Shown here: one piece after another, positions 3,001-6,000 of the stretch
Layout of the letters: the number at the start of each line of letters is the position of its first letter
How positions within the stretch are numbered: position 1 is the first letter of the stretch
Source: a virus
Lineage: Duplodnaviria > Heunggongvirae > Uroviricota > Caudoviricetes
IMG/VR virus record: IMGVR_UViG_2531839104_000020
Coordinates: 1-6,764 of that record
Reading direction: 5' to 3' (one strand)
Length of the DNA: 6,764 nucleotides
Position numbers: made by a program

Positions 3001-6000
3001 TTCAGGGAAATATCCTTTCAGTAAACTGTCAGTGCCGTATGCTCACCCGTGTCCGGCGCACGCACTCCACCTCACCCGTGGAGAACTCCTTAATTACCAA
3101 CCTTAGCTTCGTTGGTTAGCTATTAACGCGGGTATGTAATCATTCTGGCAATGCTTAATGCCGCTGCTTTTTCCAGATTGGTGATATCCTGCTCCAGAGC
3201 GGACAGATTTTCAGCCTGCTTAGCCCTGGCTTCATTGGCCCATTTCAGATCCTGCGCTGCATTAATTTTCTGGTGCATCCACTCATAAAGTTCATCATCG
3301 GTATAGTCTGGCGCGATGATGACGGGGTTCTCGTTTCTGCATGTCGGCTCCTTGTGGTTAGCGTTGCCTGCTTTTTAACCACGTCAGGCGAGGTGGTATC
3401 CTCTGAGGGGTCTGTTACTCGAGAGGAAATTGGTTATGAATACAATCAAGTTTTCTTGCCCAGAATGTGGTGGCTAAGTCTTTGACACATCCTTTAAGCC
3501 GCAGGGCTCTGACAGTTTCGCGGGAGCCATCTGCAAAAATTGTGGTCACCTTGTAACTGAAGATGAGTCCTCGCAGTTCGATGACGAAATCGTTGACAAT
3601 ATCTTCGGTGCACTCACCAGAGACTTTCTGAAGTAAAGGCGCATACCGCTTAGTTACCGCTCTGATAACTCTTACCTGTCCGGCAATGGCGCTGATATCA
3701 ATATAAAGCGCCATCGCTGTTTCTTTGCTGATCCCTGGACGCCTTCCATTCTGATGTTTGACTCGCCCACTGAGAAATCCTCTGCTTCCCCTTAACGCCG
3801 GGTAGCGGAACTGTTTGCTGAGAACACCGTGCGGTGTCTTGATGAGTAGAATTTAGAATAGCCTAAGAGTTATGGTCAAGCTTTTTGTGTAGAAAAACCT
3901 AAGCTTCTTGATGTAAAAAACACAAGTATTTGAAAGTTTGTGCTTTTTATTACAGAGAGTTGCGAAAAAAAGGGGGGTTATTTATTTGCGCTTCTTTTGC
4001 GAGCTTTGAGTAGTTCTTCAAAAAGTTTGTTGAAATTCTCAACTCGAGCACGCATCTCTGACAACAGAGCCTTTTGCTCTGACTCAGGCAGTGCGTCGAA
4101 CAGTTGAAGCAACTCTTTTTGATCTTCTGTCAGATTGACTGGCTGATTATCTGGGATCGGTTCGCCTGGTTGCTTATCTTCATCTCCAAAAAGAAGCCAA
4201 GTCGGCGAGCACTGAAGCGCCTGGCTCAGTGCGAATAATCTCTTCCCCGCTGGCTGTGTTTCATCTCTTTCCCATTGAGAAATTGTTACGTGAGCGACTT
4301 TGACCAGCTTACCTAATGCGGCCTGAGACAGTTTTAATTTTTTTCGCCTGTATAAGAGGCGAGCACCGAAGGTTTCGTTTTTCATATTAGGTAATTCTAA
4401 TTTTTCTTGACTTAGGTTTCTCTACGATCTAGTTTCCTTAGGAAAATCTAAGGGTTTCGATATGTTGAAAATTGATGCTATAGCGTTTTTTGGCAGCAAA
4501 ACAAAGCTTGCCAATGTCGCAGGAGTTAGGCTGGCAAGCGTTGCTGCATGGGGGGAACTGGTTCCTGAAGGTCGCGCGATGCGCCTGCAAGAGGCATCCG
4601 GCGGGGAACTTCAGTACGACCCCAAAGTTTATGACGAATATCGTAAGGCAAAGCGGGCGGGGCGGTTGAACAATGAAAATCACCACTGAACAGGTTTGTG
4701 AGGCTCTGGATACCTGGGTATGCCGACCAGGAATGACACAGGAGCAGGCGACGATATTAATCACGGAAGCATTCTGGGCTCTGAAAGAACGCCCGAACAT
4801 CGATGTTCAACGCGTCACGTTTAATGATGGCGAGGTTGATCAACGGGCGCTGGGCGTTAACCGGGTGAAGATATTCGAACGCTGGAAAGCTATCGACACC
4901 AGAGATAAGCGTGACAAATTCACGGCGCTGATTCCGGCAATTATGGAGGCTATCCGGATCAGCGATTTCAGATTGTATTGTGAAATTACTGACGGAAAAA
5001 GCATTACGTACATGATCGCCGGGTTAAACAAAGAATATGGCGATGTGGTGGAGTCCGGGCTGCTTTTTGCGGATCCAGTTGTTGTGGAACGTGAGACTGA
5101 CGAGCTTATAGAAAAAGCTATTGCTTTCAAGCACGCGTATCGTCAGCAATACCAATATTACTTTGCAGATAAACAAATGTCTGCCAGGGGGGCGTATGAG
5201 TATCGATGCACTACGATGGGCTAAAAAGGTGAAAACCGGCAGTTCATCCAGTAAGTCAGTATTGACCTGGCTTGCTGATATGTGCGGTGCCGATTTGTGT
5301 GCATACCCGTCTGTATCTGCACTGGCAGAAGTAACGGAACTGAACAAAAAGACTGTGCAGGACAGCTTACGACACCTGATGGAGATTGGGTTAATTGTTG
5401 ATACCGGTGAGAGAAAAGGCAGAACAAAGCAAATTGTGGTGTACCGACTTATCGGTGTAGAAGAAAGTGTTGCCGAGCCTGAATACACCCAAAAACGGGA
5501 GTCTTTAAAGGTGGGTAAAATTGGTGCTGTTAATAAAAACAGTACCGAAAATGGTTATGTTTCAGCACAAAACAGACCCAAAAACAGAACTCTTAGCTGC
5601 ATGGAAAATAACCAAAGACACCCAAATTTTCCATCAAAGACACCCAAAAACGGATCACGGAACCCAAAGGAACCCAAAGATCTAAACCCCACACATAACG
5701 CACGCGAGAGTGCTCCGACCAGTGAGCAGGAAGTTTTGTCGTTACAGGCAGCCCCCCCTGTATTCCTGTATGGCCTGAGCGAACCCATCGGAAAATTCCC
5801 GATGAGCGATAGCTGGTATCCGTCACGGGATTTTCGACGACGGGCTGCGTTGTGGGGGATGGCTTTGCCGGAGACAGAATTTACACCTGCTGAACTTGCC
5901 GCCTTCCGGGACTACTGGGCAGCGGAGGGGAAAGTGTTTACGCAGATTCAGTGGGAGCAGAAATTCGCCCGTCACGTAAATCACGTCAGGGCGCAGGTTA

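What the first reader, a model, noticed from the sequence alone, without database searches (positions are those of the whole stretch)
3850..4453. One operator motif (TTAG-N6-CTAA) controls both the immunity switch and a distal operon promoter
There are three evenly spaced copies between dicA and dicC (4387..4400, 4412..4425, 4438..4451) overlapping the divergent promoter elements, in a lambda OR-like tripartite layout. Two more copies (3853..3866 perfect, 3889..3902 imperfect) bracket a predicted minus-strand promoter 100 bp downstream of dicA. This gives a concrete, testable model of how one repressor holds both the Cro-side replication operon and the dicB-side operon silent.
Basis: seen in the sequence. 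Interest (0 to 1): 0.5.

Follow-up and report, generated by a model that had tools for sequence, protein, structure and literature searches.

The report
DicA repressor operators in an O157 prophage
The five TTAG-N6-CTAA palindromes are real and are almost certainly the binding sites of the prophage repressor DicA at its rightward (dicC) and leftward (dicB) promoters, an arrangement already described for the E. coli K-12 Qin prophage, so the finding is correct but ordinary.

Summary
Observation confirmed. There are three perfect TTAG-N6-CTAA sites (3853, 4387, 4438) and two one-mismatch sites (3889, 4412). All lie in the two non-coding regions flanking the 135-aa repressor gene, far above chance.

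The window is the dicA-dicC-dicB immunity region of the E. coli O157:H7 prophage Sp9/CP-933O type. The motif is the core of the K-12 Qin operator Oc (TTGTTAGTCATAACTAACAA). DicA binds Oc in vivo, and a CTAA-to-CTCA change abolishes that binding (Yun 2012).

- The sites keep fixed positions relative to dicA and to both promoters in Escherichia and Citrobacter relatives, while the N6 varies.
- Within this immunity type, 0 of 40 half-site positions vary, against 32 of 174 other non-coding positions.
- DicA relatives with a different recognition helix carry a different palindrome, and again the same one in both regions.

It is also the published model (Bejar 1988; Ragunathan 2023), and this very locus was studied genetically by Pan 2019.

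Refinements:
- The site next to dicA overlaps the likely -10 of a leaderless dicA promoter, like lambda OR3.
- The two imperfect sites share one variant (TCTAC) and are probably weak.
- Only two, not three, sites are recognisable at dicBp.

The parts
3853..3866 (.). Operator OB1 at dicBp. Perfect core; on the minus strand it reads TTAGGCTATTCTAA. It overlaps the promoter spacer and the first 3 bases of the -10.
   Evidence: A perfect core sits at the same place in K-12, E. ruysiae, E. albertii and Citrobacter. Within-type variants change only N6 positions 3861 and 3862.
3889..3902 (.). Operator OB2 at dicBp. One mismatch; on the minus strand it reads TTAGGTTTTTCTAC. It ends 9 bp upstream of the -35.
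   Evidence: Relatives carry a perfect site 35-36 bp upstream of OB1. It is invariant in the four within-type variants.
3850..3879 (-). Predicted dicBp, the PL analogue: -35 TTGACC 3879-3874, 18-nt spacer, -10 TAAATT 3855-3850. The start site is expected near 3843.
   Evidence: Promoter scan. The -35 CTTGMY is conserved across loci. The K-12 homologue dicBp is repressed 22-fold by DicA. The start site is inferred, not mapped.
3914..3949 (-). Hairpin flanked by an A-run and a U-run: a likely intrinsic terminator of dicA that insulates dicBp from read-through.
   Evidence: RNA fold -11.2 kcal/mol, z = -3.7, 0 of 200 shuffles fold as well. Within-type variation falls in the loop, 3926-3928. The function is inferred.
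3978..4385 (-). dicA: a 135-aa repressor with an HTH_3 domain, an N-terminal domain like that of P22 C2, and no peptidase domain.
   Evidence: The Pan 2019 primers match it exactly.
4387..4400 (.). Operator Oa (OR3-like), perfect core. It contains a -10-like TAGAAT (4399-4394, minus strand) 8 nt before the dicA ATG, and there is no Shine-Dalgarno sequence.
   Evidence: Its position at ATG-15/-16 is conserved. K-12 dicA mRNA is leaderless. K-12 Oa alone did not bind DicA.
4407..4435 (+). dicCp, the PR analogue: -35 TTGACT 4407-4412, 17-nt spacer, -10 TAGTTT 4430-4435.
   Evidence: Homology with the K-12 dicC promoter, TTGACT-17-TATCTT, whose start site was mapped by 5'RACE. The -35 is conserved in all relatives. 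The promoter scan did not call it.
4412..4425 (.). Operator Om (OR2-like), one mismatch, TTAGGTTTCTCTAC, lying within the dicCp spacer.
   Evidence: It is invariant within the type. In K-12, E. ruysiae, E. albertii and Citrobacter only the half-site next to the -35 survives. K-12 Om did not bind DicA alone.
4436..4453 (.). Operator Oc (OR1-like): a perfect 18-bp palindrome CCTTAGGAAAATCTAAGG (core 4438-4451). It abuts the dicCp -10 and covers the expected start site.
   Evidence: It is homologous in position (dicA ATG-66) and in core to K-12 Oc, which binds DicA in vivo and is inactivated by CTAA to CTCA.
4462..4689 (+). dicC: a 75-aa Cro-like protein and first gene of the rightward operon (YdaT-like 4673-5224, then replication genes 5121-6236 and 6025-6690).
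2376..2564 (-). dicB, the cell-division inhibitor and distal cargo of the dicBp operon.
   Evidence: Pfam DicB 6.4e-37. The Pan 2019 dicB primers match.

Best explanation
The window holds the immunity region of a Qin-like (DicA/DicC) lambdoid prophage of the O157:H7 Sp9/CP-933O type. Steps marked 'inferred' are not shown by any experiment on this locus.

**Recognition.** Dimers of the 135-aa DicA repressor have an N-terminal helix-turn-helix domain homologous to that of P22 C2. They recognise 14-18-bp pseudo-palindromes with conserved outer half-sites (TTAG/CTAA; here TTAGG-N4-TCTAA) and a variable, uncontacted centre.

**Right-hand set.** This set lies between dicA and dicC.
- Oc (4436-4453) covers the start region of dicCp and shuts off dicC and the YdaT/replication operon. 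From about -60 it probably also stimulates the weak dicA promoter (inferred).
- Om (4412-4425) lies in the dicCp spacer.
- Oa (4387-4400) overlaps the -10 of the leaderless dicA promoter. It is the likely site for autorepression or for DicC (Cro-like) shut-off of dicA (inferred).

**Left-hand set.** This set lies about 100 bp downstream of dicA, behind a terminator.
- OB1 (3853-3866) overlaps the -10 and spacer of dicBp and blocks RNA polymerase.
- OB2 (3889-3902) lies upstream of the -35 and probably helps cooperatively (inferred).
- Together they keep the toxic dicF/dicB operon silent.

**What is shown.**
- DicA binding to the same core in K-12.
- Genetic repression of dicB by DicA in this locus (both from the literature).

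**What is inferred.**
- Occupancy of each individual site.
- The affinity order.
- Cooperativity.
- The start sites.
For: - **Motif statistics:**
- **Identity of the locus:**
- **Literature on K-12:** K-12 Oc is TTGTTAGTCATAACTAACAA; it binds DicA in vivo, and a single CTAA-to-CTCA change abolishes binding. On a high-copy plasmid the region could only be cloned with mutations in Oc (PMC3441716). DicA represses dicBp 22-fold, and both intergenic regions are said to hold lambda-like operators (PMC10448788).
- **Same layout in K-12:** perfect cores at Oc, Oa and dicBp.
- **Positional conservation in 9 loci from 4 or more species:** Oc at ATG-65/-66, Oa at ATG-15/-16, OB1 13-14 nt after the start of the conserved CTTGMY motif that contains the -35, and OB2 35-36 bp upstream of OB1. 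The N6 is variable.
- **Purifying selection:** among 94-98% identical variants, 0 of 40 half-site positions vary against 32 of 174 other non-coding positions, Fisher p = 7e-4.
- **Covariation:** five DicA specificity groups each carry their own palindrome in both regions, in parallel with changes in the recognition helix.
- **Protein homology:** the DicA N-terminal domain matches the P22 C2 N-terminal domain at E = 1e-21. P22 repressor contacts the outer bases and not the central 4 bp of its 18-bp operators (PMC4267663).
- **This exact locus:** DicA overexpression lowers dicB; DicC overexpression lowers dicA and raises dicB (PMC6915034).
- **Leaderless dicA mRNA in K-12:** PMC4681348.
Against: - There is no binding or footprint data for this DicA variant, which is only 63% identical to K-12 DicA.
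- In K-12 the sites equivalent to Om and Oa did not bind DicA when tested alone, although Oa has a perfect TTAG-N6-CTAA core. The core is therefore not sufficient, and flanks or cooperativity matter.
- The window's flanks (CTTAG) differ from the TTGTTAG of K-12 and most relatives.
- Om is not conserved as a full site in relatives.
- The Reg-Seq paper states that the DicA site at dicB is low-evidence and its location unknown.
- All start sites in the window are predicted. The dicCp -10 (TAGTTT) is too weak for the scan to call.
Confidence: 0.85

Rival explanations
1. Only Oc and OB1 are functional DicA operators. The other three copies (Oa, Om, OB2) are conserved for other reasons, such as promoter elements, the leaderless start of dicA, or relic half-sites. 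On this view the layout is not truly tripartite or cooperative.
For: - K-12 Om and Oa did not bind DicA in the in vivo assay.
- Oa contains a -10-like TAGAAT that is conserved even in immunity types with other operators.
- Om is reduced to a half-site in K-12, E. ruysiae, E. albertii and Citrobacter.
- Om and OB2 are the imperfect copies.
Against: - OB2 is a perfect TTGTTAG-N6-CTAACAA site at the same place in E. ruysiae, E. albertii and Citrobacter.
- All five sites are invariant at their half-sites within the type.
- Single-site assays cannot detect cooperative binding, which is how weak lambda and P22 sites are filled (established knowledge).
- Both weak sites share the identical TCTAC variant.
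Confidence: 0.25
2. The palindromes are mainly DicC (Cro-like) sites. DicA would act through only one of them, or through different sequences.
For: - DicC overexpression represses dicA in this locus.
- The covariation analysis cannot separate DicA from DicC, because both genes travel with the operators.
Against: - K-12 DicA needs the CTAA half-site of Oc.
- The specificity groups track changes in the DicA recognition helix.
- In P22 and lambda, the repressor and Cro share the same operators (established knowledge), so the two readings are not exclusive.
Confidence: 0.08
3. The copies are chance palindromes in AT-rich promoter DNA.
For: The regions are AT-rich (32% and 43% GC), and one stray one-mismatch copy exists at 734.
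Against: Shuffles of the same regions almost never reach the observed counts. The positions are conserved across species. The half-sites are under purifying selection.
Confidence: 0.01

Closest known systems
DicA/DicC/dicBp locus of the E. coli K-12 Qin (Kim) cryptic prophage (Bejar 1986, 1988; Yun 2012; Ragunathan 2023)
   Same: - Same gene order, and a repressor of the same 135-aa length.
- Same TTAG-N6-CTAA core at the same distances from dicA and from both promoters.
- Same dicB cargo.
- Oc is defined experimentally, and the literature already describes operators in both the dicA-dicC and the dicA-dicBp regions.
   Different: - DicA is 63% identical and DicC 83%.
- The flanks are CTTAG rather than TTGTTAG, and position 5 is G/A rather than T/C.
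- The middle site is nearer to a full site here than in K-12.
- ydfA and ydfB are replaced by a 99-aa ORF.
- The prophage still carries replication genes.
- The dicF homologue has a 17-nt deletion.
Phage P22 immC: C2 repressor and Cro with OR1-3 and OL1-3
   Same: - The repressor N-terminal domains are homologous (E = 1e-21, residues 2-69).
- DicC belongs to the P22_Cro family.
- The operators are 18-bp symmetric sites with contacted outer bases and 4 uncontacted central bases.
- There is one operator set at the rightward promoter and one at the leftward promoter.
   Different: - DicA lacks the C-terminal autocleavage domain (135 aa against 216 aa).
- The half-site is TTAG rather than the P22 TTAAG type (P22 sequence recalled from memory).
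- Only two sites are recognisable at the leftward promoter here.
Lambda CI/Cro switch (OR1-3, OL1-3, PRM)
   Same: - Divergent repressor and cro genes, with three spaced sites across PR/PRM-like promoters.
- A leaderless repressor mRNA (shown for K-12 dicA).
- A second operator set at the leftward promoter, and bistable behaviour.
   Different: - No sequence homology of the operators.
- No RecA-dependent cleavage. In K-12, induction goes through the antirepressor Rem, urea or heat.
- If the start site is at the ATG, the positions relative to the dicA start (about -8, -33 and -60) differ from those of OR3/OR2/OR1 at PRM.

Membership tests
Qin-type DicA/DicC/dicB locus | A short (about 135 aa) HTH repressor homologous to DicA, with no peptidase domain | tested here: met
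   63% identity over the full length to K-12 DicA. Pfam finds only HTH families (HTH_3, 4e-14) and no Peptidase_S24.
Qin-type DicA/DicC/dicB locus | A divergently transcribed DicC (P22 Cro-like) gene | tested here: met
   83% identity to K-12 DicC. Pfam P22_Cro 3e-13.
Qin-type DicA/DicC/dicB locus | A dicB operon downstream of dicA on the same strand, driven by its own promoter | tested here: met
   DicB hits Pfam at 6e-37. The region is 90% identical to K-12 from ydfC into dicB (L002 3324-4214). A promoter-like site lies at 3879-3850, homologous to K-12 dicBp.
Qin-type DicA/DicC/dicB locus | An Oc operator (TTAG-N6-CTAA core) abutting the dicC -10 | tested here: met
   The site starts 66 nt before the dicA ATG in both the window and K-12. 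The K-12 Oc sequence and its binding come from PMC3441716.
Qin-type DicA/DicC/dicB locus | DicA protein binds the operators and represses dicCp and dicBp | not testable with these tools
   Only indirect support: qPCR genetics on this locus and the comparative evidence.
Qin-type DicA/DicC/dicB locus | A DicF sRNA upstream of dicB | tested here: inconclusive
   No Rfam match at the gathering score or at E <= 1. The homologous region (80% identical) has the DicF 5' end, a 17-nt internal deletion, and its own stem plus T-run.
Lambdoid CI/Cro switch with OR and OL operator triplets | Three operators between the repressor and cro genes that overlap both promoters | tested here: inconclusive
   There are three copies at 25-26 bp spacing here. 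The middle one is imperfect and is only a half-site in most relatives. K-12 Om and Oa did not bind alone.
Lambdoid CI/Cro switch with OR and OL operator triplets | Three operators at the leftward promoter | tested here: not met
   Only two sites with at most one mismatch lie in 3715-3977. Some relatives show a weak third TTAG-N6-CCAC site that is not seen in the window.
Lambdoid CI/Cro switch with OR and OL operator triplets | The repressor carries a RecA-stimulated autocleavage (S24) domain | tested here: not met
   No such domain is found in Pfam and the protein is only 135 aa. The literature says the same for K-12 DicA.
Lambdoid CI/Cro switch with OR and OL operator triplets | The operators of both sets share one repressor-specific palindrome | tested here: met
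   All five sites read TTAGG-N4-TCTA(A/C). The longest words shared between the two regions are operator half-sites and fall into blocks by immunity type.

The most novel reading that the evidence does not exclude
The two operator clusters lie about 540 bp apart and have conserved internal spacing (49-51 bp and 35-36 bp). They might be bridged by DicA oligomers into a lambda-like OL-OR loop. The dicA-proximal site would then act as a combined -10 and operator of a leaderless PRM-like promoter. If so, a short repressor without a peptidase domain, whose C-terminal domain is unrelated to that of CI, would have arrived at long-range cooperative repression independently.
Probability: 0.15. Interest if true: 0.35.

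Novelty: already known. Interest (0 to 1): 0.15.

Why it matters
[quoted passage not shown] This immunity type is present in 751 of 5426 complete E. coli genomes, including O157:H7. A site-level operator map for the O157 variant would help experiments on prophage cross-talk, filamentation and the viable-but-non-culturable state.

Conceptually it adds nothing to the model published for Qin in 1988-2023.

Tried and rejected
- **Rfam for DicF.** Searches of the window at the gathering score and of 2300-4000 at E <= 1 gave no DicF match. The homologue was found only by alignment.
- **Structure prediction.** A single-sequence AlphaFold model of DicA came out at pLDDT 58, too poor to use beyond 'helical C-terminal part'. 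No fold search was run.
- **Original papers.** Bejar 1986 and 1988 are not held in the library. Their content is cited only through Yun 2012 and Ragunathan 2023.
- **Third operator at dicBp.** None was found with at most one mismatch. The inverted repeat CTTG...CAAG at 3910-3929 overlaps the 3' arm and U-tail of the dicA terminator hairpin and is not an operator.
- **Structured leader after dicBp.** The whole-leader fold is no better than shuffles (z = 0.03), and only one compensatory pair was seen.
- **dicCp in the promoter scan.** The scan did not call it. It was placed by homology with K-12 instead.
- **Extended palindrome.** The K-12 TTGTTAG...CTAACAA form is not present in the window.
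Full report
**What is in the sequence.**
- Three are perfect TTAG-N6-CTAA cores, at 3853-3866, 4387-4400 and 4438-4451.
- Two have one mismatch: 3889-3902 (GTAG...) and 4412-4425 (...CTAC).
- The whole 6764-bp window would give 0.09 perfect copies by chance, and no shuffle out of 200 had three.
- The two non-coding regions are AT-rich, so I shuffled them on their own. The 76-bp dicA-dicC spacer holds 2 perfect and 3 near-perfect copies against 0.0075 and 0.11 expected. The 263-bp region after dicA holds 1 and 2 against 0.005 and 0.15 expected.
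- The only other near match (734) lies in a coding region and fits the chance expectation of about two.

**Orientation of the sites.** When each site is read in the direction of the lytic promoter it serves, all five read TTAGG-N4-TCTA(A/C). Both imperfect sites carry the same TCTAC variant.

**What the locus is.**
- Region 3300-4800 is 99.9% identical to O157:H7 genomes. There it lies in prophage Sp9/CP-933O, also deposited as 'PPompW' with dicA and dicC annotated.
- The 135-aa ORF is 63% identical to K-12 DicA and has only an HTH_3 domain.
- The 75-aa ORF is 83% identical to DicC and belongs to the P22_Cro family.
- DicB lies downstream on the dicA strand.
- The DicA N-terminal 69 residues match the solved P22 C2 N-terminal domain at E = 1e-21.

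**Relation to the known system.**
- Yun et al. 2012 (PMC3441716) defined the K-12 operator Oc as TTGTTAGTCATAACTAACAA, which contains TTAG-N6-CTAA.
- DicA binds it in vivo, and a single A-to-C change (CTAA to CTCA) abolishes binding.
- The promoter region could be cloned at high copy only with mutations in Oc.
- They also mention two further sequence-predicted sites, Om and Oa (from Bejar 1988), which did not bind DicA when tested alone.
- Ragunathan et al. 2023 (PMC10448788) state that the dicA-dicC and the dicA-dicBp regions contain operators like those of lambda PR and PL. They also show that DicA represses dicBp 22-fold.
- Reading K-12 in the window's orientation shows the same layout. Perfect cores sit at Oc, at Oa and over the dicBp spacer and -10, and the -35 boxes are conserved.

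**Published work on this locus.** This very locus has been studied. All 12 primers of Pan et al. 2019 (PMC6915034) match the window exactly. In that work:
- DicA overexpression lowered dicB.
- DicC overexpression lowered dicA and raised dicB.
- A dicA deletion could not be obtained.

I fetched 19 loci encoding DicA relatives from species-representative genomes.
- *Position.* In the loci with the same recognition helix (window, K-12, E. ruysiae, E. albertii, two Citrobacter, and partly Symbiopectobacterium and Rahnella) the core recurs at fixed places. Oc starts 65-66 nt before the dicA ATG and Oa 15-16 nt before it. OB1 starts 13-14 nt after the start of the conserved CTTGMY motif that contains the dicBp -35, and OB2 lies 35-36 bp further upstream. 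The N6 differs freely.
- *Selection.* This immunity type occurs in 751 of 5426 complete E. coli genomes. In four variants 94-98% identical to the window, 0 of the 40 half-site positions vary, against 32 of 174 other non-coding positions (Fisher one-sided p = 7e-4). The three changes inside sites all fall in the N6.
- *Covariation.* Relatives with a different recognition helix carry a different palindrome, and each has its own palindrome in both regions:

| Recognition helix | Palindrome |
|---|---|
| ...ISLWE | TTGAG-type, or ATTGAGTTTTCTCAAT |
| ...SVFKWE | TAACTTTTGTTA |
| ...TIFKWE | CTTAACT |

  The matrix of longest shared words between upstream and downstream regions falls into blocks by type. 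This is the classical signature of OL and OR sharing one immunity specificity.

**How it most likely works.** DicA dimers contact the outer bases of an 18-bp site and leave the central 4 bp uncontacted, by analogy with P22 repressor (PMC4267663).
- *Oc.* Oc (4436-4453) is a perfect 18-bp palindrome with an AAAA centre. It abuts the dicCp -10 (TAGTTT 4430-4435) and covers the expected start site. Occupancy there should block the dicC, YdaT and replication operon.
- *Om.* Om lies in the dicCp spacer.
- *Oa.* Oa ends one base before the dicA ATG. It contains TAGAAT 8 nt upstream of the ATG, and there is no Shine-Dalgarno sequence. K-12 dicA mRNA is one of only five leaderless E. coli mRNAs found by dRNA-seq (PMC4681348).
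- *Role of Oa.* Oa therefore overlaps the dicA -10, like lambda OR3 on PRM. It is the natural target for DicC shut-off or for autorepression.
- *Activation of dicA.* Oc then sits near -60, a position compatible with the activation of dicA reported by Yun 2012.
- *Left-hand set.* A hairpin with flanking A and U runs (3914-3949, z = -3.7) probably terminates dicA. OB1 overlaps the -10 and spacer of dicBp (TTGACC-18-TAAATT), and OB2 lies 9 bp upstream of the -35.
- *Status.* The affinity order, cooperativity and all start sites are inferred.

- The 'distal' promoter is the ordinary PL analogue.
- The 4412 site is imperfect. In most relatives it is only a half-site, so the tripartite layout is not a conserved feature.
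- Only two sites are visible at dicBp.
- A perfect core is not sufficient for binding, as K-12 Oa shows.
- The window's flanks differ from the TTGTTAG of K-12, so cross-immunity with Qin is open.
- DicA has no autocleavage domain. In K-12, induction goes through the antirepressor Rem, urea or heat, not through RecA.

**Verdict.** Interest is low (0.15). The least ordinary reading still open is long-range looping between the two operator sets by this short repressor (probability about 0.15).

Noticed in passing
window 2743-2781 (minus strand): The dicF homologue keeps the DicF 5' end (TTTCTGGTGA) but has a 17-nt internal deletion relative to K-12 DicF, with its own stem GGCGG...CCGCC followed by a T-run. 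Rfam does not detect it at the gathering score or at E <= 1.
   Followed up: partly
window about 3320-3342 (minus strand): ydfC appears frameshifted near codon 6. MQKREP is read in one frame and VIIAPDYTDDELYEW... in another, whereas the Sakai and K-12 genes are intact at 72 aa.
   Followed up: partly
window 3914-3949 (minus strand): An AT-rich hairpin flanked by an A-run and a U-run lies between dicA and dicBp. It is a likely bidirectional intrinsic terminator that the terminator scan missed (z = -3.7).
   Followed up: partly
window 3824-3837 and about 3785-3800 (minus strand): The dicBp leader (CATCAAGACACCGCACGGTGTTCTCAGCAAACAGTTCCGC...CCCGGCGTTAAGGGG) is highly conserved across Escherichia relatives and holds two small hairpins. 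Only one compensatory pair was seen, and the overall fold is no better than shuffles. Its function is unknown.
   Followed up: partly
window 2532-2750 (minus strand): A sub-threshold Rfam match to the Salmonella sRNA family STnc100 (29.5 bits against a gathering score of 47, E = 4e-4) spans the dicF-dicB interval.
   Followed up: no
window 2460-3102 compared with L001 (Sakai Sp9): The window is not Sakai Sp9 throughout. Region 3103-6699 is 99.7% identical, but 2460-2901 is only 85% identical and 2972-3102 is 94% identical. The dicF/dicB side is therefore mosaic.
   Followed up: no
L009-L019 (loci): DicA relatives fall into at least five specificity groups, with matching changes in the recognition helix and in the operator palindrome. 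This is a small natural data set on repressor-operator recognition.
   Followed up: partly
L005, L011, L012: Short contigs carrying enterobacterial DicA loci are filed under metagenome-assembled genomes named Collinsella, Bacillota and Veillonella parvula. The L005 DicA differs from K-12 DicA at a single residue. These are probably binning errors.
   Followed up: no
window 4454-4456: Within-type variants change GGGTTTCG to GGAGTTCG or GGAGGTCG just after Oc. This creates a better Shine-Dalgarno sequence for dicC than the window has.
   Followed up: no
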